Origin: a virus
Lineage: Duplodnaviria > Caudoviricetes
Length of the DNA stretch: 64,000 nt
IMG/VR virus record: IMGVR_UViG_3300046518_000260
Coordinates: 1-64,000 of that record
Strand: one strand, 5' to 3'
This document shows positions 19,736 to 33,940 of the stretch, piece by piece. The notes beneath the pieces are model-generated. The model ran no database searches. It saw nothing but the letters and a program-made list of their open reading frames with translations, and was not told the DNA's origin. The number at the start of each line of letters is the position of its first letter. Position 1 is the stretch's first letter. Both the position numbers and the translations under genes were made by a program.

Positions 19736-19780
19736 AGCATTTTCAGCCTACCAAACCCCTGCAAAACCGCCATAGCCCCT

Positions 19781-19980: not shown

Positions 19981-20013
19981 CAGGGCAACACCAACGCCAA
20001 GGAGCACCGCGCC

Positions 20014-20232: not shown

Positions 20233-20341
20233 GCACTGAGGGCAGCAGCCGTAAGGCTGCATTGCCTTTGCCCGATATCTAAAATTTTAATAAAATGCCA
20301 TCTATCGGGGCTAGGCTTGGGGCGTTTAGCCCCTTGCCGTT

Positions 20342-20554: not shown

Positions 20555-20560
20555 AGCCTC

Positions 20561-20758: not shown

Positions 20759-20791
20759 AGCGTTGCCCTCTCGGCGTGTTTGCCTGCTCCG

Positions 20792-20819
20792 ATTATACTG
20801 ATATCCCAAGCCCGGTAAA
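20792..20819 (-). promoter_or_regulatory. early promoter
   Basis: TTTACC-N16-TATAAT. Confidence 0.6.
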
Positions 20820-20839
20820 GCCGCCTCTTGGGGCCATGG

Positions 20840-21044
20840 TTAACGGGCCGATAACGATCGTCCTTAATAAACATGGTTAACGCCGCCTTAGCGATCGCCC
20901 CGCGTTAACCTTAATTCTTTACCTTAACAGATCGTTAACATTAACCTTTCATTAACCTTATCAATTAAGGTTAACGGGCCGTTAATATTAATCATCTGTT
21001 AACCATATTCGTTAACGTTAACAAGCGGTTAACGCAATCGTTAA
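20840..21044. repeat. 47-bp-period degenerate tandem array of CtrA-consensus boxes
   Basis: Units start 20877, 20924, 20971, 21018; perfect TTAA-N7-TTAA at 20924, 20941, 20971, 20988, 21018. Confidence 0.85.
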
Positions 21045-21139
21045 AATGCAACTCACCGCTCTGCGCCGCCCTCCGCCGGTCGCCAGCTTAGGCTGGCGCA
21101 CAACCGGCTGGCAGCGCCGCCGTACAGGCATGCGCGCCC

Positions 21140-21174
21140 GGCTGATATATAGCGCTAGGGTAATCTAGATACAG
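21140..21174. repeat. conserved box, copy 1
   Basis: GGCTGATATATAGCGCTAGGGTAATCTAGATACAG; similar to 32903-32935. Confidence 0.7.
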
Positions 21175-21343
21175 GTAACGTCAGAATATACTCACACATA
21201 ACTTTGACCATGGCGCGCTCAGCCTCAGAGGCACGCTCCAGCGCTTCCGCCACCTTGGGAGGTGCTACGGTAGCCGCGCGCCACTCTGCCGTTCTAAGGG
21301 CTCCTACGGCGCTTTCAAGCCTAAACAATATATCCTGTTTCAT
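21155..21343 (-). CDS. hypothetical protein
   Basis: 62 aa, AGGT SD. Confidence 0.6.
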   Translation of the reverse strand: MKQDILFRLESAVGALRTAEWRAATVAPPKVAEALERASEAERAMVKVMCEYILTLPVSRLP

Positions 21344-21354
21344 GCTGCACCTAC

Positions 21355-21454
21355 AAAATCAGACCGGCCATCATCCCCGCAGGAAATCAGACCGGCCACT
21401 TGGTTTCAGGAATATCGGACCGGCCACCCATGCGGGGGAATATCGGACCGGTCA
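21355..21454. repeat. 28-nt-period direct-repeat array (4 units)
   Basis: RAA(T)ATCRGACCGGYCA at 21355, 21383, 21410, 21438 with variable 11-12 nt spacers. Confidence 0.9.
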
Positions 21455-21700
21455 GTCATCCCGCATAGCGCGGTATTGTCCGTCAGGCATGCATGCCGCG
21501 TCGGTCTCGTCAATCTCGTTGCCCTTCTCGTCAAGCACGGGCTTGCCGGAAGCATCGACAATCGTATACCACGGTTGCGCCCAAACGGCTCGTTGCATGG
21601 CGTCACAACGGGCAAAGGTCATCGGTCCGATAGCCGTGACTTCGCGCTGCCCTCCGCCCGGCAAGTTGTGCAGGAGCAGGAATACAACAAGTTCTTTCAT
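21452..21700 (-). CDS. hypothetical protein
   Basis: 82 aa, ATGA overlap. Confidence 0.65.
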   Translation of the reverse strand: MKELVVFLLLHNLPGGGQREVTAIGPMTFARCDAMQRAVWAQPWYTIVDASGKPVLDEKGNEIDETDAACMPDGQYRAMRDD

Positions 21701-21855
21701 GGCTTCACCGTTTCAATTTTGGTTACAGACAGGTGACCTTCCCCAAGCCGGAAGGCAATGAAAACCTTAGCGGCGGCGAGCACGCGCTCCTTTTCCGCCG
21801 CATGGGTGACGTGGTTCGGCACGTCGTATTCAATGACTACGCGCAAGCGTTTCAT
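21697..21855 (-). CDS. hypothetical protein
   Basis: MKRLRVVIEY..., GAGG SD. Confidence 0.6.
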   Translation of the reverse strand: MKRLRVVIEYDVPNHVTHAAEKERVLAAAKVFIAFRLGEGHLSVTKIETVKP

Positions 21856-22124
21856 GTCAACCTCGTTATCGGCGGCTGCAAGATCGCGTTGATCTGCACA
21901 CCGATTTCCATATAGTCCCACACATACGCACGGTCTCTGTCGTTGCCAGCATAGAAATCGCAGTAGTTGCGGGCCGCTGCCAACGTGCTCGGGTAGTCGT
22001 CCTGAACGACCACATACAACACCTTGTCTTCAACCGTTGTGTGGCTAAAGTCGCTATCCATACCGCCGCTCGTGGCAACGCGATGGTGCACGGTCCCACG
22101 GTATTTCATGGTTAACAGCTTCAC
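21852..22124 (-). CDS. hypothetical protein
   Basis: AAGGAG SD with GTG overlapping upstream stop. Confidence 0.6.
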   Translation of the reverse strand: MKLLTMKYRGTVHHRVATSGGMDSDFSHTTVEDKVLYVVVQDDYPSTLAAARNYCDFYAGNDRDRAYVWDYMEIGVQINAILQPPITRLT

Positions 22125-22300
22125 AGGCCCTGCTCCTTCACCCATTGCTGCAAGGCTTCCGTGACCTTAACAGCGGTTTCATGCATCTGCTCGCGGGCTG
22201 CCATGCGCTTGCCGCCCGGCTCCTGCTCAACAAGCCCGTGCGTCGTCTTGGCGGCTGCATAGTTGTTCAGCAAGCCGCGTATGTCCAACATCGTTACCAT
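22121..22300 (-). CDS. hypothetical protein
   Basis: TGATG overlap, GGGAG SD. Confidence 0.6.
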   Translation of the reverse strand: MVTMLDIRGLLNNYAAAKTTHGLVEQEPGGKRMAAREQMHETAVKVTEALQQWVKEQGL

Positions 22301-22575
22301 CAGTCTCGCTCCCATTTGCCACAGCGCTTGCAATAGCGCGTCGGTCCAGCCGCATCAAAACCTTGCTGCCAAAGGTGTTCACACTCCATCTTTGGGGCCG
22401 GATTAGCCGCAAGGAATTCGTCCACGGCGCGCATCAGCTCAACCGTCGCTTCCCTGTACAGCGTGACCGCCGCCGTTGCATCTGCCATGGAAATGACTTG
22501 GTCAATGGCGGTTGCGCACTTTGCCGCCTCAGTGCGCAAGTCTTCAATCGTCTTGGTCTTCGTCGCTTTCGTCAT
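22300..22575 (-). CDS. hypothetical protein with C-terminal Cys/His zinc-ribbon-like motif
   Basis: CEHLW...YCKRCG; AAGGGG SD. Confidence 0.65.
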   Translation of the reverse strand: MTKATKTKTIEDLRTEAAKCATAIDQVISMADATAAVTLYREATVELMRAVDEFLAANPAPKMECEHLWQQGFDAAGPTRYCKRCGKWERD

Positions 22576-22744
22576 CGTCTTCGTCCCCTTCTGCCTCTTC
22601 GGCTTCGTCCAGCAGTTTTCCCCACTTGGCCTCATATTCAGCTTCGGTCATAGGCTTGCGCTTTGCGTCCGCTATTTCAGCTTCCGCCCGGCGCTTTTCA
22701 GCCTCGGCCTCAATCCATTCTTCAAGACCCTTGATGGTTCCCAT
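22544..22744 (-). CDS. very acidic small protein
   Basis: Ends EEAEGDEDDDESDEDQDD; GAAGGA SD. Confidence 0.6.
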   Translation of the reverse strand: MGTIKGLEEWIEAEAEKRRAEAEIADAKRKPMTEAEYEAKWGKLLDEAEEAEGDEDDDESDEDQDD

Positions 22745-22754
22745 TTCGGTTCCT

Positions 22755-23135
22755 TCAGCGTACCAGCATCTTCAAAATCTTCATCATGTCGCGGTCAAAC
22801 TTCTCGCCGTCGGTCAACACCCGACGCGGCTTGCGTTCGCGGTCATGAATGTATTCGCGAATAAGTTCGCGGTCTTTCAGGTCACGGGCAATCTGCCGGG
22901 CGGCTTCTTCCTTGCGGCGCTGTTCGGTTTCAGCGTTGCCTTCCGCCAGCTTTTCAGCAATCTCGTGCTGCCGGGCTGCGTAGGTTTCCAGCTCGCCCAA
23001 TGCCAGCTTAGCCCGGTTGGTCAGCATTACCAGCGGCACGCCATTATCTTCAGCCACGCTGGCAAGTGCCACTTTGGGGTCGGTCCCGTTCAGCAGTTCA
23101 GCCTTAACGTCTTCAATCGCTGTAAGAATGTCCAT
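22755..23135 (-). CDS. hypothetical protein
   Basis: AAGGAG SD, MDILTAIE...; promoter TTGCGT-N16-TATGGT at 23161-23188. Confidence 0.75.
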   Translation of the reverse strand: MDILTAIEDVKAELLNGTDPKVALASVAEDNGVPLVMLTNRAKLALGELETYAARQHEIAEKLAEGNAETEQRRKEEAARQIARDLKDRELIREYIHDRERKPRRVLTDGEKFDRDMMKILKMLVR

Positions 23136-23211
23136 GTGCCTTGCTCCTTGTGTTGAAATCACCATACTGATTTCCACGGGCCACGCAACCGCAACCCTGA
23201 ACAATGGTTAA

Positions 23212-23403
23212 TTATTCCTTATGCTCCAGCCGCCAAAGGTAGGGCAGCAACGCCTTAAGCCTTGGCAGATCATAGCCGCTATCCAGCAGCAACGCGACCG
23301 AATAGAACATGCGTTCCTTTTGCGGCAAGCCCTCGACCAGCATCTCCGCCGTGCGGGCTAGCTCTTGGTCCAGCGTGCCGCCTATTCGTGGTTCATCAAA
23401 CAT
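23212..23403 (-). CDS. hypothetical protein
   Basis: 63 aa, AAGGAGG SD. Confidence 0.65.
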   Translation of the reverse strand: MFDEPRIGGTLDQELARTAEMLVEGLPQKERMFYSVALLLDSGYDLPRLKALLPYLWRLEHKE

Positions 23404-23843
23404 GCGACTGCCTCCTTGCGCAAGTCGGCGGCAAGCCGCCAGTCGGTTTCCTCGGGCCTCAGCACGCGAATATCAAGCCACGAATTGCGGTTGCAGCCGA
23501 ACACGGTCCGCGACCACTTGGAAGCGGTATCGAATAGCACAGCATTGCCGCTTATCTGCGCTTCAATCCTGCCATCCTTGACAACCGCAAGGAAGCGTTC
23601 GGTCCGGTATGTCATGTACATCTTTGTTCCATGCGGCAGCGTCACCGCGCCCCATACCAGCGGCTTGCCGACGCGCTCCTGCCGGGCAAGCAACTTTACC
23701 CGCCAATCTTCGCTAAGCCGTTCAACGGCTTGCTGCATGGCGTTTTCGAACAGGTCTAGCGGGTTAACCCTGCCGCTGGTCAGGCGCACGACCTTTTCGT
23801 ACAGCTTGCGCGGCACAGGGATGTATATGTGGTCTTTGTCCAT
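23382..23843 (-). CDS. RHH-like + RAMA/DUF4357-like DNA-binding protein
   Basis: IYIPVPRKLYEKV N-terminus; LVWGAVTLPHGTKMYMTY...TASKWS...NRNSWLDI...WRLAADLR C-terminus. Confidence 0.5.
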   Translation of the reverse strand: MDKDHIYIPVPRKLYEKVVRLTSGRVNPLDLFENAMQQAVERLSEDWRVKLLARQERVGKPLVWGAVTLPHGTKMYMTYRTERFLAVVKDGRIEAQISGNAVLFDTASKWSRTVFGCNRNSWLDIRVLRPEETDWRLAADLRKEAVACLMNHE

Positions 23844-24292
23844 CAGTATACCTGCCCGCGACCGCGCCCGGTCCGCTCATACGCAAGGTCAGGCTTTTGG
23901 GTCGTGCTCGTGTATTCCACGGCCAAGGTCCGCCTGCGACCGCGCCCGTTGCAAAACCATGTCGTCGTCAGCTGGTGCCCGATACGGTCCATCCACAGCC
24001 CTTCACCGCGCCACCATGGCATCCCAACAAAGCCAAGTCCGACCAGCGTCTTGCGCAACTCTACCAAGTCCTCGGCGTGCGCCATCGGCAATTCCCACCG
24101 CGTCGTCAGTATGGTCGCAATGCTTTGGTGCGCATTGGGGAAGTCGCCATCCGGAATTCCCCTATGGCTGGTGTAGCGGCTGGTCGCCGTGGCGGTTTTC
24201 TCCGAGACAAACTCGTACTCCATGGCAACCATGAACGCGGTAATTGTCTTGCGCACGGGCAAGGTGCGCGGCTTCTTTACGGGCTTGCTCAT
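23843..24292 (-). CDS. hypothetical protein
   Basis: 149 aa, overlapping stops/starts. Confidence 0.65.
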   Translation of the reverse strand: MSKPVKKPRTLPVRKTITAFMVAMEYEFVSEKTATATSRYTSHRGIPDGDFPNAHQSIATILTTRWELPMAHAEDLVELRKTLVGLGFVGMPWWRGEGLWMDRIGHQLTTTWFCNGRGRRRTLAVEYTSTTQKPDLAYERTGRGRGQVY

Positions 24293-24477
24293 TAGCGTCT
24301 ATCCTCCACCGCATCAAACGTCTTGCCGTCATGGCGCACGGTCCATTTCAGGGCCTCAACGCTCTTGGCCTGATACACCTCAATCACGCGACGCGGCTGC
24401 CCGTCAGGTCCGCCTACCAACGCTCCCATGACGGGAAATTTGTTGCTAACGCCATTCATAATTTCCAGCGTGTTCAT
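24292..24477 (-). CDS. hypothetical protein
   Basis: 61 aa. Confidence 0.6.
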   Translation of the reverse strand: MNTLEIMNGVSNKFPVMGALVGGPDGQPRRVIEVYQAKSVEALKWTVRHDGKTFDAVEDRR

Positions 24478-24914
24478 GCGCCTATTAACTCCGTCAGCCC
24501 CAAGGTTTCCAGTACCGTGTCGGCGTATGCAGCTTCGCGCGGGAAGTCCACAATGTCGCCAATGGAAAGCACGCCATTTTCGTCGCGCACAAATACCACG
24601 GTCCGCGCCGTGTTCGGCTCTTCAATGCAAATCTCGGTAAAGGCCGTGGTCCCTAAATCGTCCCACATCGTGGGCACTGGAAATTCGGTCGCCTCGTTAA
24701 GCGCATCGCTCAGGGCCTCTAATTCTTCACGCAAGGCATTAGCCCGCGCGGTCATGGCCGCAAGCTCCGAACGCTTTACCATCGTCGGGCCGCGCTGGCA
24801 CAAACTGGCGCTCAGCAGCGGCCAAGTCTTGGCGCGCTCGCCTTGGAACCTTTGGGCCGCAAGCCCGATATTCTCAAGCTTCACGGCAATGTCGGTCAAC
24901 TGTGCTCGGTTCAT
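24474..24914 (-). CDS. hypothetical protein
   Basis: AAGGAG SD before MNRAQL. Confidence 0.7.
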   Translation of the reverse strand: MNRAQLTDIAVKLENIGLAAQRFQGERAKTWPLLSASLCQRGPTMVKRSELAAMTARANALREELEALSDALNEATEFPVPTMWDDLGTTAFTEICIEEPNTARTVVFVRDENGVLSIGDIVDFPREAAYADTVLETLGLTELIGA

Positions 24915-25011
24915 GGTCAGTGCTCCTTGTTCGTTGATCCCATAAAGCATTTCCCGGAACCGGGCGCAATGCCTATCGTTACAACATGGTTAACAAATCG
25001 CCCTATGGCCT

Positions 25012-25105
25012 CAGAGCCACAGAGAAGCCCGTACAAGCGATCTCTGTGTGATCGAGTATATCCATACCGACCCAAAGCTCCGAGGCTATCTACTTGTAAT
25101 CGTTA
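25012..25105 (+). repeat. diverged third copy of the 103-bp cassette
   Basis: CAGAGCCACAGAGAAGCCCGTACAAGCGATCTC...GTATATCCATACC...CTTGTAATCGTTA. Confidence 0.75.
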
Positions 25106-25110
25106 TACTT

Positions 25111-25320
25111 TTAGCCGCGCTCCCGTGGTATTCCATTCATTGCCATGAAGTGCGCCGCTTGTGCGATCAGCTCCATAGCGGTTGCCAGCCGGTCTATTGC
25201 CTCGACGGTTTCCCACCGCAACGCAAAATCCTTTTGCTCACTGTTCAGCCGTTCGTCGGTCAATACCGCATGCCGGTTCTTGCTCCGCGTTGCGAAGTCA
25301 GCCCTTGGGGTCTCTTCCAT
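25111..25320 (-). CDS. hypothetical protein
   Basis: GGAGG SD before MEETPR. Confidence 0.55.
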   Translation of the reverse strand: MEETPRADFATRSKNRHAVLTDERLNSEQKDFALRWETVEAIDRLATAMELIAQAAHFMAMNGIPRERG

Positions 25321-25528
25321 CCATTTCCTCCAATACCGCGCGAGCAAGGTGCTCCGCTTCCATGTGCAGTTTAGCGATTTCCTGCCTGATACGCTGACGC
25401 CAAAAGCCGTATTGACGGCGCTGCAATGCCAGCGGCGGTCCGCGTCTCAGTGCCCGTTCCAACTCGTTGGCGCGAGCGACCGCGCCAATCATCCGCATTA
25501 ATGCCGTGCGCCGCATGGCTAAATCCAA
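25298..25528 (-). CDS. hypothetical protein (start uncertain)
   Basis: Fills operon. Confidence 0.5.
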   Translation of the reverse strand: MDLAMRRTALMRMIGAVARANELERALRRGPPLALQRRQYGFWRQRIRQEIAKLHMEAEHLARAVLEEMDGRDPKG

Positions 25529-26157
25529 GCCTTGACGGCAAGCTCGACATCGCGCCGGTAAAAGCCGCCAGCAACCGACTGTACTGCGTGGACGTAGTTG
25601 CTACCTTGCCAAATCCGCATGGTCAGTGACGTGCCGCTCGTGTTAAACGTGCAGTCCAGTCCCACGGCTTTGATAAAAGCCTCAGCCCACTTGTAATGCA
25701 CTTCGTATTCAGCATCGCTAGGGGCGTTTAGAACGGTCTCCAGCGCGTCCTTGGCTTTGTAGGTGCGTAGCCACTCCAACCGCGCCGTTGCGTTCTTGAG
25801 CCAATCTAGGGCCTCTGAGGGCACATCTGGCACATCTGGCGCAGCTGGTGCCACCACTTCCGCACAGTACAACGGGCCAACGCCGAACGCGGCATCACAT
25901 TTCCTGCATCGCGATGAATAATAGTCAGGTTCGGCTGTCCCCCAAGTATGCGGAATTCGCTTGGGGTCGATCTTGTCAGCCCGCATAGACGCCGACCGCG
26001 ACCAAAGCACAATGCCGTCACCGTCCAAGCACGCAACGTTGAAATCGCCCTTGTCGGCGTATACCACAATCAGGTTTCCCGGGCCATCAATCGGCGTCAT
26101 CGAAACAATGTATTCCAGCCCGTAAGGCGCAAGCGCGTCCCGAATTTTCTCAAGCAT
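25519..26157 (-). CDS. hypothetical protein
   Basis: 212 aa, GGAG SD, CxxC...C motif in the middle. Confidence 0.7.
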   Translation of the reverse strand: MLEKIRDALAPYGLEYIVSMTPIDGPGNLIVVYADKGDFNVACLDGDGIVLWSRSASMRADKIDPKRIPHTWGTAEPDYYSSRCRKCDAAFGVGPLYCAEVVAPAAPDVPDVPSEALDWLKNATARLEWLRTYKAKDALETVLNAPSDAEYEVHYKWAEAFIKAVGLDCTFNTSGTSLTMRIWQGSNYVHAVQSVAGGFYRRDVELAVKAWI

Positions 26158-26276
26158 TTTTCCCTGCTCCGTTAATTGATTATAGTGTCCCCGCCATCCC
26201 TAGCGGGGACACCATGCCATGGTCGCGTTGGCGGACAAACGACCATGCCGGTATTGCTAGGACAGGTTGAATTACC

Positions 26277-26576
26277 CTAGCAATTCTTCAAGCTCGCTTC
26301 CATGCTGTCAGCCAACCGCGTCACCGCTTCGGCGTTCCAAACTTCGTCAGTTGTCAGCTCAATATCGACCGTGCCGACCAACTGGAACATCACCGGATTA
26401 AATGCCCGGTTCGGCTTGCTCACATAGGAAAAGGCAAACTTGCGGTCTGCAATGGTCACGTTGATAATTCCGACCATAAAGTCCAGCAACAACTCTTCCG
26501 GTATGTCGTCGGTGAACAAGAGTTGCCCTTGCGCATTAAGAAAATGCACGGTTATCTTGCCGTCTTGGCTATGCAT
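26277..26576 (-). CDS. hypothetical protein
   Basis: TAATG overlap, AAAGGA SD. Confidence 0.65.
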   Translation of the reverse strand: MHSQDGKITVHFLNAQGQLLFTDDIPEELLLDFMVGIINVTIADRKFAFSYVSKPNRAFNPVMFQLVGTVDIELTTDEVWNAEAVTRLADSMEASLKNC

Positions 26577-26830
26577 TAGAATATCCTTTTCCACCAAGGC
26601 AAGCCGCGCGCTTCCCGCACGTCCTTTTGCCGTTTCATAAATCCCATCAGGTCAAGCGCTTGCTTGCCTTCATCCATCTGCCAAAGCAGGTCTATGGAAG
26701 CTTCCATATCCAACTCAACTTCGGCCTGCTCACCGGCCTCGGTCGTAAAGGCAAAGCATACGCGGCTGAACGCGCGGTTCACGGTCCCGACAATTCGGGT
26801 GTCCAGCATTTGGGCGATCTTAATGGTCAC
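26576..26830 (-). CDS. hypothetical protein
   Basis: 84 aa. Confidence 0.6.
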   Translation of the reverse strand: MTIKIAQMLDTRIVGTVNRAFSRVCFAFTTEAGEQAEVELDMEASIDLLWQMDEGKQALDLMGFMKRQKDVREARGLPWWKRIF

Positions 26831-27023
26831 GGCCTATCCCCGGAAATGTAATAATGACCTTTGTCTGATGCGGCGCATAGCCCAATTCTTCGGCTATCTC
26901 GCAAGCCACGACAACGGCTGCAACGAGTTGGTGTGGCTGGTAAATATCTACCCTAGCCACATGACGGTCCAGCGGTCCAACCTGAAGCCGGACCGCCGCT
27001 GTTTTCGTTTTGGCCTTAGCCAT
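26820..27023 (-). CDS. hypothetical protein
   Basis: 67 aa. Confidence 0.55.
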   Translation of the reverse strand: MAKAKTKTAAVRLQVGPLDRHVARVDIYQPHQLVAAVVVACEIAEELGYAPHQTKVIITFPGIGRDH

Positions 27024-27702
27024 GGGTCAACGCCAGCTTGTCGTCCTTTTCGCCTTCGAGATGTCGGGCCAAATTTATTTTGTCCGCGAACTCTTTGGCA
27101 AGCTCGGTCTCGCCGACCTTAATGTTCTTGCTCGTCAAGCCTGTCTTGTTCTCGTTCATCCATGCCTGCGCCTCGTCCACATGCACCAGCGCCCGGCTAT
27201 GGCCGCCCGTTGCCGTGGCAAGTTGCTCCTGTGCATCAATCAAGCGCCGAATACGGAAGTAAAAGGCGTCGCACACATCTTCCATGCTTTTCTTCATGGA
27301 AAAGTAAGTGCGTTTGCGGTATTCCGCCGCTTGGTGGCGCAGCTGGTCAACCACAAAGGGCAGCATCAGCGCTAGCGTTATCCGCGAGCTTTCTCGGCCA
27401 ACCGCAAGGTAAGCGGTCATGCCGGGCTGCTTCTGGCGGAACACCTTGCAGCCGTAATATTCAGCCATGATCGGCGGAATAAGGTCGTGCCATTTGCGGT
27501 TAGTAAACGGCGCTACAAAGACCACTGACTGGTCAATCGCGTCGGTCTTCACCACGTCGCCAATTTCCAGCTGGTGCTCTTCCAGCATTTGCTGAGCCTT
27601 GGCCGCGAAGCTAGCGGCTTCATGCTCGTTGTCCGTGCCACCCGCCTTTGCGAGCAGGGCGGCAATTTTCTTCTTCAGCTTCTCCACGTTTTGCTTGCTC
27701 AT
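27016..27702 (-). CDS. DUF2786-family protein
   Basis: KIAALLAKAGGTDNEHEAASFAAKAQQMLEEHQL N-terminal motif; promoter TTGTAG-N16-TAGTGT at 27744-27771. Confidence 0.75.
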   Translation of the reverse strand: MSKQNVEKLKKKIAALLAKAGGTDNEHEAASFAAKAQQMLEEHQLEIGDVVKTDAIDQSVVFVAPFTNRKWHDLIPPIMAEYYGCKVFRQKQPGMTAYLAVGRESSRITLALMLPFVVDQLRHQAAEYRKRTYFSMKKSMEDVCDAFYFRIRRLIDAQEQLATATGGHSRALVHVDEAQAWMNENKTGLTSKNIKVGETELAKEFADKINLARHLEGEKDDKLALTHG

Positions 27703-27796
27703 TTCGATACTCCTTGGGGCTGCGTCATGCCGCCCTTGAATTCACACTATACTTTCCCTCCGTCTCTACAACTCTATTCAGTGAACATGGTTAATA

Positions 27797-27952
27797 TTAA
27801 TCTGTGTTAACGGCCTTGTTCACAAACAGAATTGTATAGTGGTCGGGGTTCTCGGTCATGGAAACTACTTCCCAACCGACCGCTGCCAACTCACCAATCA
27901 CTTCTTCGATTTCGTTGGCGTCTCGGGCTAGCCGGACCGTATATTGGCTCAC
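27797..27952 (-). CDS. small DUF4177-like protein
   Basis: GGGGAG SD, GTG; ELAAVGWEVVS motif. Confidence 0.55.
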   Translation of the reverse strand: MSQYTVRLARDANEIEEVIGELAAVGWEVVSMTENPDHYTILFVNKAVNTD

Positions 27953-28188
27953 AGTAACTCCCCTTTGCTTGGTTCCGCCTTGGCCGTGAAGCACGGGCAA
28001 ACAGCGCAATGTTCTATTAAGATGGACGCCTTTAGCGGAGGCCACTTGAAATCGTACTGTCGCGTAACGCTGACCGGCATGGCATATGCAGGGACCGTGA
28101 AGCCGCAACTATAGGCCCAATTCTTCCGCACGCGCACAACGCCATCAGTGTCCGGCTTCGCCTGCAGATGGATGCAATGTTTACTCAC
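27949..28188 (-). CDS. Cys-containing hypothetical protein
   Basis: GAGG SD, GTG 28188. Confidence 0.5.
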   Translation of the reverse strand: MSKHCIHLQAKPDTDGVVRVRKNWAYSCGFTVPAYAMPVSVTRQYDFKWPPLKASILIEHCAVCPCFTAKAEPSKGELL

Positions 28189-28546
28189 CGCCGTCGTCCT
28201 CTTCCGGTATCTGTGCCACCAAAGGCGCGGCGGTATCGCTGAACGCCCGGCTAGGGCGGATGCGGCTTTCGGCATTGCGGCGCACTGGTCCGTCGGCGTC
28301 GAAGTCGTCTGCAAATACCACGTCGATTTCGTTGCTGGTAACTTGCCAGCCCGTGGCGCTCCGCCGGTCCGCAACCACGGTCACGGGCTTGTCGCCTTGC
28401 AGGGCTTTTATCGCCTTGCTGTTATCCGTCGGGTGCTGCATCGCCGACATTACCATGACCGGCGCTCCATTTCCGAGATTGTTATACTTGTGCTTGAAGC
28501 CAAGGCAATCAGCGTAACTGCGGACCCAATACAGCGTCTTGGTCAT
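28181..28546 (-). CDS. hypothetical protein
   Basis: 121 aa, GGAG SD. Confidence 0.65.
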   Translation of the reverse strand: MTKTLYWVRSYADCLGFKHKYNNLGNGAPVMVMSAMQHPTDNSKAIKALQGDKPVTVVADRRSATGWQVTSNEIDVVFADDFDADGPVRRNAESRIRPSRAFSDTAAPLVAQIPEEDDGGE

Positions 28547-28746
28547 GTCGGCTCCCTGTACGAAACCCGCACGCGTTCTGGGAAAACATACCAGTAACGC
28601 TCTGGCGTTCTGGCAAGCTCACGCATGGCCTGAGCGCGCAAGTGGTCCACAAGTGGGCCGCTGGTCCTGCCGTACCAAACGCCATTCTGGAGCCACTCCA
28701 GTAGCAGCGGTTCGGCCTTCACTGTTCGGGATGATTGTCCAGCCAT
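28543..28746 (-). CDS. hypothetical protein (start may be GTG 28722)
   Basis: Operon fit. Confidence 0.5.
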   Translation of the reverse strand: MAGQSSRTVKAEPLLLEWLQNGVWYGRTSGPLVDHLRAQAMRELARTPERYWYVFPERVRVSYREPT

Positions 28747-28916
28747 TCCTTAGCCGCTCCTATCAGTTTGAATTGCACCTTGGGGTCAGCCTGCCCGATA
28801 ATGATCTCGGCAAACTTGCGCTTCATGCCGTCGGACACATCCGTGCCGCGCATCAGGTGTCGCCCCATGGTCTCAAGCGAACTATCGCTCCAGCGGGTCA
28901 TAGGTCCTCGCTCCAT
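28719..28916 (-). CDS. hypothetical protein
   Basis: 65 aa. Confidence 0.55.
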   Translation of the reverse strand: MERGPMTRWSDSSLETMGRHLMRGTDVSDGMKRKFAEIIIGQADPKVQFKLIGAAKEWLDNHPEQ

Positions 28917-29332
28917 GTGTCTAGCTGGTAGTAGAACGTTTCCGCCTGCTCCTGCTCGCTATAGGTACGGTGCCAGTCGTGTGACCAAACCTCCGGGCCT
29001 TCCAGTATATCGTACCGTAGAGCGAAGACCAGCCATCCCCAAGGGTAAACACCCATACCGGGCTCAAATCGCCTGTACTCGCCCCTGAGCAGCCCTTGTG
29101 CTGGTCGTGCCACGGTATGGCCGAACAAATTCTGCTCCGCCTCACGCAATATGCCAATGTGCACGTCCATGTCGTCAATGTATGCTGGCTCGCGACCGTC
29201 CCAATGGATGACCTTGTGCCAGACTTTGCCGACCATAACCGCTTCGATTGGGTCCATTTCAATCTTAAGCAGGTTGCCGATCTGGCTCGCTTCCTGCTCG
29301 AAAATCACCCGTAAATGTGTCAACCTGCCCAC
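28898..29332 (-). CDS. hypothetical protein
   Basis: 144 aa, GGAG SD, GTG. Confidence 0.6.
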   Translation of the reverse strand: MGRLTHLRVIFEQEASQIGNLLKIEMDPIEAVMVGKVWHKVIHWDGREPAYIDDMDVHIGILREAEQNLFGHTVARPAQGLLRGEYRRFEPGMGVYPWGWLVFALRYDILEGPEVWSHDWHRTYSEQEQAETFYYQLDTWSEDL

Positions 29333-29391
29333 GCTTGCTCACTCCAATTTCAAACGGAAGATAGGGCGGGTTTCCCCGCCCTTGTATCGTG

Positions 29392-30366
29392 TTAGACCAG
29401 CTCGCCCGTGTAACCTGCCATCTGCAGCAAGTAGTCCTTAACGTCAAGCTTCACCTTGGCAAGTTGCCCGAAAGTGGAGTTTGTCAGCCGGGCTGCCGGG
29501 CTACGGCCTGCAACGTGGTCGGCGTAGTGGGTTACGCCATTCAGCAAGCCCCAAGCGTTTTCCGGGATTGCGCCCGGCGCTGAAACAACCGAGTGCAGCA
29601 CCTCAGCCAATACCGGGCTCTGTGCGTCTGGGTTGACCAGCAACATTTTCACGTCGCTGGCATGCTCGGCCATATCCGGCTGGAAGAACGTTGCCAGCGT
29701 CCGCACAGTGTCGTAAGCCGACATCTGCAGGCTGCTAAGCGCTTCGGCTTCCATCTTGTGGACAGCCACGCTTTCACGGGCAAAGGCAAACGTTTCCTTA
29801 GCCTTGGACATGTCAAAGTCCTTCATGTGGTTCTGCCGGTATTCGGTCGCGCCGCCACGGGCGTTTGCCATTGTCAGCGTATTCTGGCAAACCACGCGGA
29901 CCATTGTGGTCATGGCGCGGATTGATGAACCGGGCGCATGGCTGTTCGAAAGCAGCACATAGCCGTTCACAGTGTCACGGCCTTTCAGGGTAAAGCCCTT
30001 GTTGATGTTCGCCAGCGCCCAAATGGTCTTCCCGTCGTACAGGCTGCCAGCGGTTTCCAGCGTGGCGCTACCAGCGTCCACAAAGTCCCGGAAAAATTCC
30101 ATCAGCTCGGCGTTCTGGAAAGGCTTCCAGCCCGTCGAAGAAACCGAAAGAATGCGCTTGTCGGTGTCGCGGGTAACGGCAACCTTGTTCGGCACGGCAA
30201 CCTCTTCGTCGCCAATCTTCACGAACATCGGGTGCTGCGATACAGCCCAATCAAGGCCCGCTGCCTTGGTCATTTCTTCGATGGAAGCGCCCTGCTCCAG
30301 CTTGTTGCCAAGACCGTGCCACGGGGTTGCGCCAACGTATGCCATGGTTTCAACTTCTGCACTCAT
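29392..30366 (-). CDS. DUF932-family protein
   Basis: MAYVGATPWHGLG...AAGLDW...FQN...ETAGSLYDGK...LLSNSH...TMVRVVCQNTL; GGAG SD. Confidence 0.85.
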   Translation of the reverse strand: MSAEVETMAYVGATPWHGLGNKLEQGASIEEMTKAAGLDWAVSQHPMFVKIGDEEVAVPNKVAVTRDTDKRILSVSSTGWKPFQNAELMEFFRDFVDAGSATLETAGSLYDGKTIWALANINKGFTLKGRDTVNGYVLLSNSHAPGSSIRAMTTMVRVVCQNTLTMANARGGATEYRQNHMKDFDMSKAKETFAFARESVAVHKMEAEALSSLQMSAYDTVRTLATFFQPDMAEHASDVKMLLVNPDAQSPVLAEVLHSVVSAPGAIPENAWGLLNGVTHYADHVAGRSPAARLTNSTFGQLAKVKLDVKDYLLQMAGYTGELV

Positions 30367-30418
30367 TTTCGTCACTCCTGTTTTGCGACCTTCTCGGTTC
30401 GCCGTTGCCAATGAGAGC

Positions 30419-30492
30419 AACCTAAACGAACATGTCAGGAAATGCAAGGCAGTTTGCCAAGGTTCGGCGGTAATAGTTAATGAAAAGTTAAC
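30419..30492 (-). promoter_or_regulatory. promoter with upstream CtrA-consensus box
   Basis: TTGCAT-N17-TAGGTT (30447-30419); TTAA-TGAAAAG-TTAAC at 30477. Confidence 0.6.
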
Positions 30493-30612
30493 GGGCGTTT
30501 TAGGTAGGCGACGCGCCACGGGCTGGCACTAGCTAGAAAGGGCGGCAAACCGGCTAGATTGGCCCGTGACGCGCGTTAGCGGGCTAAGCGGTACAATGTA
30601 CCCGCCAATACC

Positions 30613-30921
30613 TCAAACGCTACTGGAGGCCTGCTCGTTGGCTTCGGGCAGGTCCGGTAACAGTCCGAGGAATTCACGTTCGTGATCGTTGCCAACATCG
30701 TCAGCGCTAAGGAACCAATTGTCGTAGGCTTCTACGATCGTGGCGTCGCTGTACGGCGCAATCTCTTCCTTGAATTTGTAGCGCAGGTTTCGCACCAAAC
30801 TTTCGTTCCGAAATTCCACCTGCTCAGCCGTCAGCCTTCCCCAATTTGGGTCGTGTGGGACAGGCGACATTTCCGCCAATGCCTTTTCCATGTGGGCCTT
30901 CATCTCTTCCGAGTTGGTCAT
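30613..30921 (-). CDS. hypothetical protein
   Basis: 102 aa, AAGGAGG SD. Confidence 0.75.
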   Translation of the reverse strand: MTNSEEMKAHMEKALAEMSPVPHDPNWGRLTAEQVEFRNESLVRNLRYKFKEEIAPYSDATIVEAYDNWFLSADDVGNDHEREFLGLLPDLPEANEQASSSV

Positions 30922-31037
30922 GCTGTCCTCCTTCTATGCAACGTTACTAAAATGCAAGGCAGTTTGCAACGCAATAAACAACAAGGTATTTTACGCCTAA
31001 AGAGGTAGCCCGACATTTCAGCCGGGCTTGCCAAGTG

Positions 31038-31295
31038 CTAAGCGGTAATATCGTCAAACAGCGTGCCGCCGTTCGGCCAATCTGGACCAAAGCGCATCGC
31101 CATAAACGTCACCCCGTCGTCCCACGTGAAGTAAAGGACTTCGCCTGCTTCCAGCTTGTGCACGGTCGCGCCTTCGGCCTTGGCTGCATAGGCCACCCGC
31201 CAGTTAAGCAGGTAGTCTGTCAACGTGTTACCGCTGCCAAAGTCGCCATTAGCAAGCCGCGCGGACAGGTCCGCATGCGTGAGCAGTTCTTCCAT
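31038..31295 (-). CDS. hypothetical protein
   Basis: 85 aa, AGGAG SD. Confidence 0.7.
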   Translation of the reverse strand: MEELLTHADLSARLANGDFGSGNTLTDYLLNWRVAYAAKAEGATVHKLEAGEVLYFTWDDGVTFMAMRFGPDWPNGGTLFDDITA

Positions 31296-31360
31296 AATAT
31301 CTCCTATGTTGTTAACCTTGACAGTCTAGCAACCGCCGCTGTAAAATACAAGGTATTTTA

Positions 31361-31395
31361 TTAAAAAAGAAAAGCCCGGCATTTGCGCCGGGCTT
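31361..31395 (-). terminator. intrinsic terminator
   Basis: AAGCCCGGC/GCCGGGCTT stem then TTCTTTTTT. Confidence 0.8.
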
Positions 31396-31414
31396 GTTGG
31401 TGCAGGCTTGAAGG

Positions 31415-32329
31415 TTACTTGGCCTTCTTGTCAGCGGCAGCCTTGTCGGCAGCGACGGCGGCTTCGGAAGCAGCCTTGTCAGCGGCAGCCTTTTCGTCGG
31501 CAGCGGCCTTGTCGGCAATCTTCTTGTCTTCCTTGGCCTTCTTGTCGGCGTCAGCCTTGGTCTTCTTTTCGAGATCGGCAGCGTCCTTTTCGGCCTTCTT
31601 CTTGGCCTTGGCTTCTTCTTCAGCCTTGGCCTTTTCGCCGGCGACGGCTTCGGCACTGACGCGGGCTGCATCGAGGGCAGCAATCTCGGCAGCGCGCTCT
31701 TCAGGCGTTGCGCCAGTCAGGAACACGATGTTGCCCTTGTCCAAGTCGTACTGCAAGTCCACGTAACGACCGCCACCCGACTTCGTCAGGTATTCCTCGG
31801 TCGTGCAACCCGGATTTGCAATGATGTATTGCAAGGCATTGATGCCGACGCCCGTGCCGCCAATTCGGCGGCCGTTCAGGGCAGCGCCGGACCGTGCATA
31901 AAACTTGTTGGAAAGCGGCGAAGAACGGCCTTCGGCGGCTGCCTTGTTGGCCTTTTCCTTCGCAGGCTTCTTGGTCTTCAGCGCCGAAGCAAGCTTTTCG
32001 GTTTCGCTGGAACCGGCAGCCGGTGCAGCCTTCATGGAAGCCGCAACTTCCGTCAGCTTTTCAGCAAGCGCAGCCGAACCGATCTTGCGGTCCTTGAAAC
32101 CGGCAACCTTCTTCGGCGCAATCTTGTTGTACGCCTCGACGATCGATGCCAGCGTAATTTCGTTGTCTTCGGCAATGCCTTCAGCCGTGGTGATCGGTGC
32201 CTTGTCCGGGAAAGCCGTGGTAAAGCCGTCCTTGCCGTCAAGTTCGAGGAAGGCGCGAATTTTGACGCCATCCCAAGCTACGAAAAATGCTGCCGTTGCT
32301 GCCGCTGCCGTCGTTACGATATCATTCAT
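31415..32329 (-). CDS. protein with wHTH-like core and Lys/Ala-rich histone-H1-like tail
   Basis: GGAG SD before MNDIV; AKKKAEKDAAD...DKAAADKKAK; promoter TTGCAA-N16-TATAAG at 32417-32390. Confidence 0.75.
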   Translation of the reverse strand: MNDIVTTAAAATAAFFVAWDGVKIRAFLELDGKDGFTTAFPDKAPITTAEGIAEDNEITLASIVEAYNKIAPKKVAGFKDRKIGSAALAEKLTEVAASMKAAPAAGSSETEKLASALKTKKPAKEKANKAAAEGRSSPLSNKFYARSGAALNGRRIGGTGVGINALQYIIANPGCTTEEYLTKSGGGRYVDLQYDLDKGNIVFLTGATPEERAAEIAALDAARVSAEAVAGEKAKAEEEAKAKKKAEKDAADLEKKTKADADKKAKEDKKIADKAAADEKAAADKAASEAAVAADKAAADKKAK

Positions 32330-32539
32330 TGCCGTTACTCCGTTGGGTTTGGTTTGATTTGTCGGCCTCGTTTGCCGCCGATGACCATACTTATAATCCA
32401 TTCTCCGAACATTGCAAACGAAAAAATGGCCTCGGGCAAATTTTTCAGCAACTTTGGCCTAAGCCTTTGTTTTTGTTCGCATAAAACTTCACTCCCCTGC
32501 ATTTGCCACACGGCCCACGGCCCCAAAGTGACGGGCTAC

Positions 32540-32795
32540 ACTCTATATATACATGAGAGCTGATATTTAAAATTGTTCATAATTTTATGTAAAATACAAC
32601 CATTGGGGAATTAAGTAAAATTGTAGAAATAGTTTAATGAAAGTTTTATCATTTACAGATTGTCTAAAACTTTATCAATTATGATTTAAGTAAAAGTTTA
32701 TCAATTAAAGTTTATCTAAAATTGTATCAAACTGCCTTTTATTAAAATTGTATCTATCAACTATGTGGCATTTTATTAAAATGCAATCTATCAGC
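32540..32795. other. very AT-rich island with short iterated motifs (origin candidate)
   Basis: AAA(G/C/A)TT(T/G)(T)ATC at about 32640, 32667, 32693, 32707, 32718, 32744; 34-bp-period direct repeat at 32737/32771. Confidence 0.5.
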
Positions 32796-32902
32796 TTTTG
32801 CTGCGCCGCAGCACGGCCTTGCCGCCGCCCGGTTGCCGGGCCTGCCTCCCGCGAGCGGGCGAGCGCGGCGCACGGAGCGGGGAAACCGGGGCAGCGGCGC
32901 GC

Positions 32903-32935
32903 GGCTGATATAAAGCGCTGGGAAATTAGATACAG
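32903..32935. repeat. conserved box, copy 2
   Basis: GGCTGATATAAAGCGCTGGGAAATTAGATACAG. Confidence 0.7.
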
Positions 32936-33122
32936 TGAGCGATCAATGACCATGGATATTACTAGACGCAGCTCGGCCCGACGCACGGCTTCCGGGGTCC
33001 AAGGGGAATGTGAGCGTCGGGCCTAAATATATCTGGGCGTAATCCGCAACAGATGGTTCGCATGATGCTTCGGGTTCTATGGGCCTCACCTGACCTTTCT
33101 ATTGTCAGAGCAAACTTGGGGC

Positions 33123-33195
33123 AAAATCAGACCGGCCATTCTCTCCGGAGAAAATCAGACCGGCCATCGATCGCCAGGAAAATCAGACCGGCCAT
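33123..33195. repeat. 28-nt-period direct-repeat array (3 units)
   Basis: AAAATCAGACCGGCCAT exact at 33123, 33151, 33179 with unique 11-nt spacers. Confidence 0.95.
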
Positions 33196-33939
33196 TCAAG
33201 TTGAAACTTTATCGGCCACCAGCCCGGCAATCAGTTTCGCCTTGGCGGCTTTGAAGTCTTTTTCCCGTTCGCCGGAAACGACACCGTCAACCACACTCTG
33301 CGCTTCTGCGACAATGGCCCGGCATTCAAGCATGACGGAAACTTCAACTTCGCTGAGCACGAACTTGAAAACATTCTCCGGGATCGGCTCGTGGTAGTTG
33401 AACCTACCGCTGACTTCCCATGTCATTTCATAGTCGCCAGGATGCGCATAGGTAGTCGAAGATTTGGCAGGCTTCAACCGAGCAGGATCGTACTTTTTGA
33501 CCGGCTCAGCGATAGCATCCCAATCTACCACTAGAGGTTCAGGTTCAGGGGCGAACGGAGCTCTGTTCCATTCTTCCAATGCATAGTCCAGCGCTTCGGC
33601 GAAGTCGCGGGCCTTCTTGATCGCTCTGGTGTAATTGTTGATCTTGAAATCAGAGTTCAAGTTGACCGTAGCGATGATCGCTTTCCCGGTTAACGCCGCT
33701 CCAAGCTCGACGAGGGTGCCGCTATGTGCTTCACCCTGCTCGCGGAACAGAATGAAAATGTCACACTCGGCAGCTTCACTGATGCATGCTGCCCAAAGGT
33801 CGTCCCAATCGTGGGTGCTTCCGGGCTCAGCTTGATCGATCCAACTTGAAACGATCCTGAAACCGTCTGCACGCAGATCGCGCCAGCGCTGTGCCCATGT
33901 GGCCTTGCTCGCGATATAAATCTTTGGCCGCTTGTCCAT
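33196..33939 (-). CDS. nucleoside 2-deoxyribosyltransferase-like domain protein
   Basis: KIYIAS...SSWID...ISEAAECDIFILF...SGTLVELGAAL; GGAG SD. Confidence 0.65.
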   Translation of the reverse strand: MDKRPKIYIASKATWAQRWRDLRADGFRIVSSWIDQAEPGSTHDWDDLWAACISEAAECDIFILFREQGEAHSGTLVELGAALTGKAIIATVNLNSDFKINNYTRAIKKARDFAEALDYALEEWNRAPFAPEPEPLVVDWDAIAEPVKKYDPARLKPAKSSTTYAHPGDYEMTWEVSGRFNYHEPIPENVFKFVLSEVEVSVMLECRAIVAEAQSVVDGVVSGEREKDFKAAKAKLIAGLVADKVST

Positions 33940-33940
33940 T

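What the first reader, a model, noticed from the sequence alone, without database searches (positions are those of the whole stretch)
21355..33195. Mini arrays: 16-17-nt repeat, unique 11-nt spacers, 28-nt period
Seen: 4 units at 21355-21454 and 3 exact units at 33123-33195 of AAAATCAGACCGGCCA(T). The period is fixed although the spacers are unrelated, and each array starts at a stop codon. The period is not a multiple of 3, so it is not coding. Spacers are too short for CRISPR and no cas gene is present. Inference: multimeric binding sites (RHH-type DNA binder) or repeated RNA elements (UGGCCGGUCUGAUUUU) for processing, antitermination or protein sponging.
Basis: seen in the sequence. Interest (0 to 1): 0.7.

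Follow-up and report, generated by a model that had tools for sequence, protein, structure and literature searches.

The report
Phased self-pairing boxes ending phage operons
Two short arrays of a conserved 17-base box, repeated every 28 bases, sit right after the last gene of two operons in an uncultured 75-kb phage and its relatives; they most likely act as punctuation at the end of the transcript, and they are not a CRISPR-like system.

Summary
There are 4 units at 21355-21454 and 3 exact units at 33123-33195, all at a 28-nt period (8 matches against 0.73 expected by chance).

The genes here lie on the minus strand, so the sense-strand unit is A-TGGCCGGTC-YGATTTT followed by about 12 free bases.

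The same box occurs at the syntenic site in three related phages (2, 2 and 4 units) and at a second locus of one of them: 19 units in 6 arrays, with periods of 28 (11 intervals) or 29 (2 intervals). Twelve of 17 box positions never vary, although the flanking DNA cannot be aligned. A fifth relative carries a different 29-nt unit at both equivalent sites.

Every array abuts the end of an upstream gene (two lie inside open frames), is co-oriented with transcription, and opens a roughly 650-800-nt gene-free cassette: array, about 180 nt, a conserved block, a GC-rich block, AT-rich or CtrA-box repeats, then a promoter.

The core GGCCGGUC pairs with itself in the sense RNA only (two G.U pairs), so neighbouring boxes form hairpins followed by a U-rich tail.

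Best reading (about 0.4): an RNA stem-loop module at the operon end, acting in termination, processing or insulation. Close rival (about 0.3): phased binding sites for an unidentified phage protein. No CRISPR, TIGR or ToxN-type (toxin-antitoxin) partner gene was found. Function is untested.

This scan had already noted the same arrays on this genome.

The parts
21355..21454 (-). Array 1: four units. Sense-strand order is 21454->21355: TGACCGGTCCGATATT, TGGCCGGTCCGATATT, TGGCCGGTCTGATTTC, TGGCCGGTCTGATTTT. Period 28.
33123..33195 (-). Array 2: three exact units ATGGCCGGTCTGATTTT, period 28. Syntenic with the arrays of relatives G001, G005:C2 and L027/L059.
21452..21700 (-). Last gene before array 1 (82 aa). 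Coding-like, with homologues in G001 and G005. Its TGA stop is the first three bases of the array.
33196..33978 (-). Last gene before array 2 (260 aa, weak nucleoside deoxyribosyltransferase-like hit). Its TGA stop abuts the first unit.
21155..21343 (-). 62-codon ORF directly after array 1. Its codon score (-0.05) lies below the 5th percentile of coding windows, and it has no homologues. It is probably non-coding spacer of the cassette.
21127..21180 (-). Conserved block of cassette 1 (CTGTATCTA..AGCGCT.TATATCAGCCG.GCGC), 175 nt after the array and 80% identical to the block of cassette 2.
32890..32941 (-). Conserved block of cassette 2, 182 nt after array 2.
32800..32889 (-). GC-rich block of cassette 2. 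Cassette 1 has its counterpart at about 21050-21126.
20924..21032 (.). Cluster of five full CtrA boxes (TTAA-N7-TTAA) closing cassette 1, followed by a sigma-70-like promoter at 20819-20792 (minus strand).
32535..32799 (-). AT-rich repeat region of cassette 2 (TTTTAATAAAAT-type motifs, 26-nt period), ending in the conserved TCTCATGTATATATAGAGTGTAGC promoter-like box (32535-32560).
31415..32401 (-). First gene downstream of cassette 2: a conserved 328-aa protein with a Lys/Ala-rich helical tail, preceded by a conserved leader of about 130 nt in this phage (32402-32534; longer in relatives).

Best explanation
The arrays are punctuation at the end of an operon and act in the sense-strand transcript. 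Each unit carries the core GGCCGGUC, which is self-complementary in RNA through two G.U pairs, followed by a U-rich tail (YGAUUUU). Once the upstream operon has been transcribed past its last stop codon, neighbouring units pair into GC-rich hairpins of about 36 nt, each followed by UGAUUUUG. With four units they can form one long hairpin of about 23 bp.

These hairpins stop, pause or mark for cleavage the read-through transcript and protect its 3' end. The CtrA-regulated promoter cassette that follows is thereby insulated from upstream transcription.

The arrays grow by tandem duplication of the 28-nt unit. The roughly 12 bases between boxes lie in the loop and are free to drift.

Shown: anatomy, conservation, strand bias, position and pairing potential. 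Inferred: that the RNA structure forms, and that its role is termination, processing or insulation.
For: 1. Position. All 8 arrays (6 of this box type, 2 of the G006 type) begin at or within 19 nt of the end of an upstream gene, or inside an ORF that runs into them. All open a gene-free cassette of roughly 650-800 nt that ends in a promoter. The short ORFs inside the cassettes score as non-coding.
2. Orientation. All arrays are co-oriented with the flanking genes.
3. Pairing. Core-to-core pairing appears in the minimum-free-energy fold of every array. Adjacent-pair hairpins have -10.5 to -18.5 kcal/mol, and the sense strand is more stable than the antisense strand in 13 of 13 pairs because the imperfect positions are G.U in the sense strand and A.C in the antisense.
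4. Tail. The last unit ends in TGATTT(T/C)G in 5 of 6 arrays (L027: CGATTTCG); the base after the tail is G in all 6.
5. No alternative terminator. The simple terminator scan finds nothing else terminator-like on the coding strand between the gene end and the next promoter.
6. Different sequence, same property. In relative G006 the box sequence differs, yet the two units at the syntenic site differ from each other at exactly the positions that make them mutually complementary: fold -29.7 kcal/mol against -16.2 +/- 3.3 for shuffles, z = -4.1.
7. Analogy within the genome. At other promoter cassettes (19120-19194, 20272-20346) the same slot, between stop codon and AT-rich motif, holds an ordinary GC hairpin.
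8. Growth by duplication. L027 has two identical neighbouring spacers.
Against: - Whole-array fold z-scores are modest: -0.2, -1.9, -2.5, -2.2 and +0.2.
- Hairpins within the spacers are no better than in shuffled spacers.
- Box positions that could change without loss of pairing (G2 to A, U7 to C) are almost never changed: 18 of 19 and 19 of 19 conserved. Something therefore reads the sequence, not only the structure.
- A loop does not need a period held at 28-29 nt.
- Array 2 has an odd number of units.
- The U-tract is interrupted. The G006 units are AU-rich with no U-tract, so a classical intrinsic terminator cannot be the shared function.
- The phage uses canonical terminators elsewhere (31395-31372).
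- No expression data exist.
Confidence: 0.4

Rival explanations
1. The arrays are phased binding sites on DNA for a phage-encoded sequence-specific protein. The protein-coated array would form the upstream border of the regulatory cassette. It could act as a transcriptional roadblock, like the stoperators of mycobacteriophage L5, or as a distal operator or enhancer of the cassette promoter.
For: - Twelve of 17 box positions are invariant in 19 units from five contigs of four or five phages whose flanks cannot be aligned.
- Conservation goes beyond what pairing requires.
- The period is held at 28-29 bp while the spacers are saturated with substitutions.
- The box occurs only in arrays, never alone.
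- The motif is lineage-specific and is the same at both cassettes of a genome. G006 has its own unit at both cassettes and also lacks the whole early gene block 33.2-39.2 kb that the box-bearing phages share.
Against: - No candidate reader could be identified. The proteins shared only by box-bearing phages (34684-35169, 35434-36117, 36114-36398, 38473-39213) have no known DNA-binding fold.
- 28-29 bp is 2.7 helical turns, which is poor for same-face cooperative binding.
- The two cassettes of each genome also resemble each other more than their orthologues in other blocks, so concerted evolution can explain the shared motif without a trans-acting factor.
- The imperfect palindrome positions are G.U-compatible on the sense strand only.
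Confidence: 0.3
2. The arrays are iterons of a replication origin. The array would bind the phage initiator, and the GC-rich block plus AT-rich region would form the unwinding element. The second array would be an auxiliary site, as the crr region is in phage P4.
For: - Direct repeats lie beside a GC-rich block, an AT-rich repeat tract and CtrA boxes.
- There are two distant loci in one genome, and the repeat sequence is lineage-specific.
- The phage encodes its own primase, helicase and polymerase.
Against: - The period is 28-29 bp, not the roughly 22 bp of iterons.
- The array is about 300 nt away from the AT-rich tract.
- There is no DnaA box in either cassette.
- The cumulative GC-skew minimum lies near 38-40 kb, not at the arrays.
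- The arrays are far from the replication genes.
- Strict co-orientation with transcription is not expected of iterons.
Confidence: 0.1
3. The arrays are recombination linkers at cassette borders: conserved direct repeats that serve mainly as homology for swapping gene modules, like the PeSL (promoter-early stem-loop) cassettes of T4-type phages.
For: - Array 1 lies exactly where homology with G001 and G005 stops. Gene 21452-21700 is conserved, while 13.9-21.4 kb is private to this phage.
- G006 differs from the others from the array upstream.
- Copy number varies: 2, 2, 3 and 4 units at one syntenic site.
Against: - 17-nt boxes are very short for homologous recombination.
- This reading does not explain the fixed period, the self-complementary core or the strand bias.
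- Upstream of array 2, G000 and G001 are diverged orthologues, not swapped modules.
Confidence: 0.08
4. The arrays are small-RNA arrays. They would be processed into units of about 28 nt that act as guides for an unknown effector, or as decoys or antitoxins like the pseudo-ToxI repeats of phage PhiTE.
For: - Repeat-spacer look, fixed period and transcription in the sense direction.
- Copy-number expansion with identical units in L027.
- Phages are known to carry TIGR arrays with 8-12-nt spacers (PMC12045711).
Against: - No Nop/Tas, TnpB-type, HNH, IS110 or ToxN domain was found in the complete genome.
- There is a single spacer per unit, not the dual spacers of TIGR arrays.
- Arrays have only 2-4 units.
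- Spacers have no matches in the phage's own genome beyond chance.
- No array with this core exists in 185,579 species genomes apart from phage contigs and an unrelated tandem repeat.
- No Rfam family matches.
Confidence: 0.05
5. The arrays are neutral slippage duplications with no function.
For: Two neighbouring spacers in L027 are identical, which shows that the unit does duplicate.
Against: - The box is conserved across five contigs of four or five phages while spacers and flanks are saturated.
- The site is syntenic and the orientation is always the same.
- The box is present at both cassettes of a genome.
Confidence: 0.03

Closest known systems
RNase III processing and 3'-stabilising hairpins between the early genes of phage T7/T3, and intrinsic terminators in general
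   Same: Conserved intergenic stem-loops directly after stop codons, co-oriented with transcription and recurring at several operon junctions of one phage. A GC-rich stem is followed by a U-rich stretch.
   Different: Here the stem is formed by two copies of a direct repeat whose core is self-complementary, so the element is modular (2-4 units) and has a 28-nt period. The sequence is far more conserved than the structure requires. No cleavage or termination data exist.
Stoperators of mycobacteriophage L5 and relatives (asymmetric 13-bp repressor sites that block elongation)
   Same: An asymmetric box, always in one orientation relative to transcription, lying in short intergenic spaces next to stop and start codons.
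   Different: As I recall them, stoperators are single sites scattered about 24-30 times over the genome and bound by the phage repressor. Here the box occurs only in two phased arrays, no repressor is known, and the phage looks lytic.
Iterons of plasmid and lambdoid or P4 phage origins
   Same: Arrays of 2-4 direct repeats of about 17 bp with lineage-specific sequence, near GC-rich and AT-rich tracts. There are two distant loci, as with P4 ori and crr.
   Different: The period is 28-29 bp rather than about 22 bp. The arrays are about 300 nt from the AT-rich tract. There are no DnaA boxes and no adjacent initiator gene, and the arrays are strictly co-oriented with transcription.
PeSL (promoter-early stem-loop) cassettes of T4-type phages (Arbiol et al. 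2010; known to me only through scan note e1-5679520, paper not read)
   Same: Repeated regulatory punctuation (stem-loop plus promoter) that frames variable early-gene cassettes and coincides with mosaic junctions.
   Different: A PeSL is one compact unit of roughly 50-70 bp. Here the punctuation is a multi-part cassette of roughly 650-800 nt whose first part is the phased array.
TIGR arrays, CRISPR mini-arrays and type III antitoxin repeats (ToxI)
   Same: Short repeats at a fixed period, with variable inserts, carried by phages.
   Different: There is a single spacer of 11-12 nt, only 2-4 units and no effector or toxin gene. The units are not identical over their whole length as ToxI repeats are.

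Membership tests
CRISPR array | Repeats of about 23-55 nt separated by spacers of about 20-70 nt | tested here: not met
   The repeat is 16-17 nt and the spacer 11-12 nt.
CRISPR array | cas genes, or a host CRISPR system with the same repeat | tested here: inconclusive
   No TnpB/Cas12f-type or HNH domain was found in the genome. There is no array with this core in 185,579 species genomes. Individual Cas families were not all searched.
TIGR-Tas | A Nop-domain Tas protein encoded in the genome | tested here: not met
   PF01798 finds nothing in six frames of the complete 75-kb genome. The authors' custom profile was not available.
TIGR-Tas | [quoted passage not shown] | tested here: not met
   Each 28-nt unit has one repeat type and one spacer. 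Features taken from PMC12045711.
Type III toxin-antitoxin antitoxin array (ToxI-like) | Tandem units nearly identical over their whole length, followed by a terminator and a ToxN-type toxin gene | tested here: not met
   Only 17 of 28 nt are conserved. There is no ToxN domain in the genome. Other type III toxin families were not searched.
Replication-origin iterons | Direct repeats of 17-22 bp at about 22-bp (two-turn) spacing, abutting an AT-rich unwinding element | tested here: not met
   The spacing is 28-29 bp and the AT-rich tract begins about 300 nt away.
Replication-origin iterons | A cognate initiator that binds the repeats, and origin activity | not testable with these tools
   No initiator could be identified. 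There are no DnaA boxes in the cassettes.
Intrinsic (Rho-independent) terminator | A GC-rich hairpin immediately followed by a U-tract on the transcribed strand | tested here: inconclusive
   Adjacent cores form hairpins with an 8-bp stem (-10.5 to -18.5 kcal/mol) followed by UGAUUUUG. However, the loop is about 20 nt, the U-tract is interrupted, and the G006 variant lacks both features.
Stoperator-type operator | An asymmetric site, co-oriented with transcription and intergenic | tested here: met
Stoperator-type operator | Many single sites dispersed over the genome and bound by the phage repressor | tested here: not met
   The profile search finds the box only in the two arrays. No repressor is known.

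The most novel reading that the evidence does not exclude
The arrays are transcribed and cut into units of about 28 nt, each a conserved handle plus an 11-12-nt variable part. These would work with a still unrecognised phage protein, for example one of the unknown early proteins shared only by box-bearing phages, as a minimal RNA-guided or RNA-decoy system distinct from CRISPR, TIGR and ToxI.
Probability: 0.05. Interest if true: 0.8.

Novelty: new variant of a known kind. Interest (0 to 1): 0.42.

Why it matters
The arrays define a small, sharply conserved cis-element that marks the upstream border of the regulatory cassettes of an uncultured group of CtrA-box-bearing phages, probably of Alphaproteobacteria.

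If the hairpin reading holds, this is a modular way of building operon-end structures from one self-complementary direct repeat, so that copy number could tune strength. It would also explain how a repeat-spacer look can arise without any acquisition machinery, which is a useful caution for array-hunting pipelines.

If a protein reads the box instead, the box would lead to a new phage regulator that acts together with host CtrA control. Either way the element is easy to test in a reporter construct.

Tried and rejected
- CRISPR, TIGR, IscB-type, IS110 and ToxIN readings: no Nop, TnpB-TNB, HNH, IS110 or ToxN domain in the genome.
- Rfam: no family at gathering thresholds; only chance-level hits at permissive thresholds. 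No tRNA or tmRNA.
- Spacer targets: no excess of matches in the phage's own genome.
- Nested spacer hairpins: looked convincing by eye (UUCUC-CGGA-GAGAA and similar) but are no better than shuffled spacers.
- sigma-54, IHF, CcrM, boxA and tRNA T-arm look-alikes: compared by eye with the consensus sequences as I remember them; the spacing or the letters do not fit. No DnaA box lies in either cassette.
- Coding reading: ORFs run through the arrays in L032 and in G006 cassette 2, but the proteins on either side show no significant similarity, and the short ORFs after the arrays in this genome score as non-coding.
- Search for a reader protein: the KA-rich protein downstream of cassette 2 was modelled (pLDDT 68) and gave no PDB match. 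Atlas, PDB, Pfam and PHROG searches of five early proteins gave nothing usable.
- More relatives: the DUF932-based and leader-pattern-based scans of IMG/VR found none. A scan with the G006-type unit found only G006 itself. No cultured phage matches at DNA level.
- Planctomycetales link: one MAG (a genome assembled from a metagenome) holds dozens of 28-nt tandem arrays that share the 13-mer core. It was found by a pattern that imposed both the core and the period. The phage carries CtrA boxes, which point to an alphaproteobacterial host, so I treat this as coincidence.

Full report
**Observation.** The + strand carries AAAATCAGACCGGCCA at 21355, 21383, 21411 and 21439 (0 to 3 mismatches) and at 33123, 33151 and 33179 (exact), always 28 nt apart. 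Eight matches at up to 3 mismatches compare with 0.73 expected from shuffles, and no shuffle reached 8. The repeat finder and TRF agree. The window is bases 1-64000 of a complete 75,275-bp IMG/VR phage record. It encodes a portal, a baseplate hub, and a polymerase, primase and helicase of its own. A profile of the unit finds no solitary copy anywhere in the genome.

**Strand and setting.** The genes of this region lie on the minus strand, so the sense-strand unit is A-TGGCCGGTC-YGATTTT followed by about 12 variable bases.
- Array 1 starts with the TGA stop of ORF 21452-21700. This is a real gene by codon score and has homologues in relatives.
- Array 2 starts one base after the TGA of ORF 33196-33978.
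- The 62-codon ORF after array 1, and the small ORFs after array 2, score as non-coding and have no homologues.
- So both arrays open long gene-free regions.

**Relatives.** Pattern scans of IMG/VR, JGI metagenomes and 185,579 species genomes found the same box in only a handful of contigs.
- G001 is a 75.9-kb IMG/VR phage, syntenic with this one at about 65-75% nucleotide identity.
- G005:C2 is a 76.1-kb contig binned into a Saccharibacteria MAG.
- L027 and L059 are overlapping metagenome contigs of a third type.
- L032 comes from the same sample series as L027/L059.
- At the site syntenic with array 2 these phages carry 2, 2 and 4 units. L032 carries 4 units in another context.

In all there are 19 units in 6 arrays. 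The period is 28 in 11 intervals and 29 in 2. Positions T1, G2, C4-T8, G11 and A12 are invariant and most others nearly so.

In the G000-G001 comparison the array aligns at 87.5% identity, while the 2.5 kb upstream cannot be aligned at all and the neighbouring protein is only 38% identical. This is purifying selection, not neutral slippage. In L027 two neighbouring spacers are identical, which shows that arrays grow by duplication of the 28-nt unit.

**A larger cassette.** A lead from earlier notes of this scan held up when I tested it. Each array is the first part of a multi-part cassette, in this order:
1. the array;
2. a variable stretch of about 175-200 nt;
3. a conserved block (21127-21180 and 32890-32941, 80% identical);
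4. a GC-rich block of about 100 nt;
5. AT-rich repeats. In cassette 1 these are five full CtrA boxes; the window holds 13 TTAA-N7-TTAA against 0.58 expected;
6. a promoter-like box and the next genes.

L032 shows the same layout and matches L027 in the block, so that phage type also has two cassettes. G001 and G005 have one. The CtrA boxes point to an alphaproteobacterial host. The best cultured hits of a neighbouring protein are Aminobacter and Rhizobium phages.

**The variant phage.** G006 (74.7 kb) shares the downstream gene and the cassette layout but lacks the box. At the syntenic site, directly at the TAA stop, it has two 29-nt units of another sequence (AAATCCGTTTTGCGATTTCGGTAGAATA). 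Two more such units sit at a second cassette 9 kb away. G006 also lacks the whole early gene block 33.2-39.2 kb that the box-bearing phages share. Within each genome the two cassettes resemble each other more than their orthologues do. That is concerted evolution, so a shared motif within a genome does not by itself prove a trans-acting reader.

**Pairing.** GGCCGGUC pairs with a second copy of itself over 8 bp if two G.U pairs are allowed; on the antisense strand the same positions are A.C.
- Core-to-core pairs appear in the minimum-free-energy fold of every array. Array 1 folds as one long hairpin in which spacer 1 also pairs with spacer 3 (CCCCGCA with UGCGGGG).
- Adjacent-pair hairpins have -10.5 to -18.5 kcal/mol, and the sense strand beats the antisense in 13 of 13 pairs.
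- Each core is followed by YGAUUUU. The last unit ends in UGAUUU(U/C)G in 5 of 6 arrays (CGAUUUCG in L027), and a G follows the tail in all 6.
- The two G006 units at the syntenic site differ from each other at exactly the three positions that make them mutually complementary: -29.7 kcal/mol against -16.2 +/- 3.3 for shuffles, z = -4.1. Here too one imperfect position is a sense-strand G.U.
- On the coding strand the simple scan finds no other terminator-like feature between the gene ends and the next promoters.
- At other promoter cassettes of this genome the slot between stop codon and AT-rich motif holds a plain GC hairpin.

**Limits of the RNA reading.**
- Whole-array z-scores are modest.
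- The nested spacer hairpins that look compensatory by eye are no better than in shuffled spacers.
- Positions that could change without loss of pairing are nevertheless conserved.
- A loop does not require a 28-29-nt period.
- The G006 units are AU-rich without a U-tract, so a classical intrinsic terminator cannot be the common denominator.

These points keep a sequence-specific reader, either a protein on DNA or a protein or RNase on RNA, as a close rival. I could not name such a protein. The HTH protein at 36646 is only 30-33% identical between them. The proteins shared only by box-bearing phages are of unknown function.

**Other readings.**
- CRISPR fails on repeat and spacer length.
- TIGR fails on the dual-spacer unit and on the absence of a Nop protein.
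- ToxI-type antitoxins fail on whole-unit identity and on the absence of ToxN.
- No TnpB-type, HNH or IS110 domain is present.
- Spacers have no excess of matches in the phage genome.
- Origin iterons fit poorly: 28-29-bp spacing, 300 nt to the AT tract, no DnaA box, and a GC-skew minimum elsewhere.

**Verdict.** This is a real, selected, lineage-specific cis-element of an uncultured phage group, and I read it as modular punctuation at the end of operons. The most likely mechanism is self-pairing of the boxes in the sense transcript, acting in termination, processing or insulation ahead of a CtrA-controlled promoter cassette (about 0.4). Protein binding to the phased boxes is nearly as likely (about 0.3). 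It is a new variant of known kinds of intergenic phage punctuation, not a new defence or guide system. All functional statements are inference.

Noticed in passing
window 20780-21454 and 32535-33195; also L032:985-1430 with L027:2552-3300, and G006 (L138 / G006:C1 about 1860-2392 and 10700-11464): A multi-part non-coding cassette of roughly 650-800 nt (array, about 180 nt, conserved block, GC-rich block, AT-rich or CtrA-box repeats, promoter) occurs twice per genome in three phage types and once in two others. Copies within a genome resemble each other more than orthologous copies do, which indicates concerted evolution.
   Followed up: partly
window 32800-32889 and 21050-21126, plus the relatives listed: At the syntenic cassettes of relatives (G001, G005, L027, G006 c1) the GC-rich block is C-rich and G-poor on the sense strand; in this phage's cassette 2 only its first half is. 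It is G-rich at the second cassettes (G000 e1, L032, G006 c2). It could be a Rho-loading tract in one case and an R-loop or G-rich element in the other.
   Followed up: no
window 17760-17791, 19124-19155, 20276-20307, 32713-32793: A near-palindromic AT-rich motif of about 30 bp (..GATAGATGGCATTTTATTAAAAT..) recurs five times in intergenic gaps of the leftward early region. At 19120-19194 and 20272-20346 it is preceded by a small GC hairpin right after a stop codon. It is probably a phage promoter or operator family.
   Followed up: no
window 32402-32560: A promoter-like box TCTCATGTATATATAGAGTGTAGC (96% identical to G001) and a leader of about 130 nt here (up to about 190 nt in relatives) with strongly conserved islands (AAAACAATGGCTTAG, TTTTTCGTTTGCA) precede the gene of the Lys/Ala-rich protein in all five phages. 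It may be a regulatory leader RNA.
   Followed up: partly
window 31415-32401 (-): A conserved 328-aa protein with a confidently modelled N-terminal domain, a possible small winged-helix-like unit (residues 163-203, low confidence) and a long Lys/Ala-rich helix. It has no Pfam, PHROG or PDB match. It is the first gene after cassette 2.
   Followed up: partly
loci L062-L132 (MAG CAZXUI01, uncultured Planctomycetales): At least 24 contigs of one MAG, mostly at contig ends, carry tandem arrays of a 28-nt unit AATCAGACCGGTCAGAGACCGGTCCCCC (hairpin GACCGGTC-AGA-GACCGGTC). Conserved flanking hairpins recur on one side. It shares the 13-mer core and the period with the phage box, probably by coincidence of the search pattern. 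It is an abundant, undescribed-looking genomic repeat family.
   Followed up: partly
L121 / G005:C2 (CAZCMS010000002.1, 76,146 bp): A complete-looking phage genome of this group is binned in a 'Candidatus Saccharibacteria' MAG. The group's CtrA boxes (seen in G000 and G006; not checked in this contig) and its Rhizobiales-phage protein affinities suggest mis-binning.
   Followed up: no
window 13900-21450: About 7.5 kb downstream of array 1 has no detectable protein or DNA similarity to the three complete relatives. It is a hypervariable early region that begins exactly at the array.
   Followed up: partly
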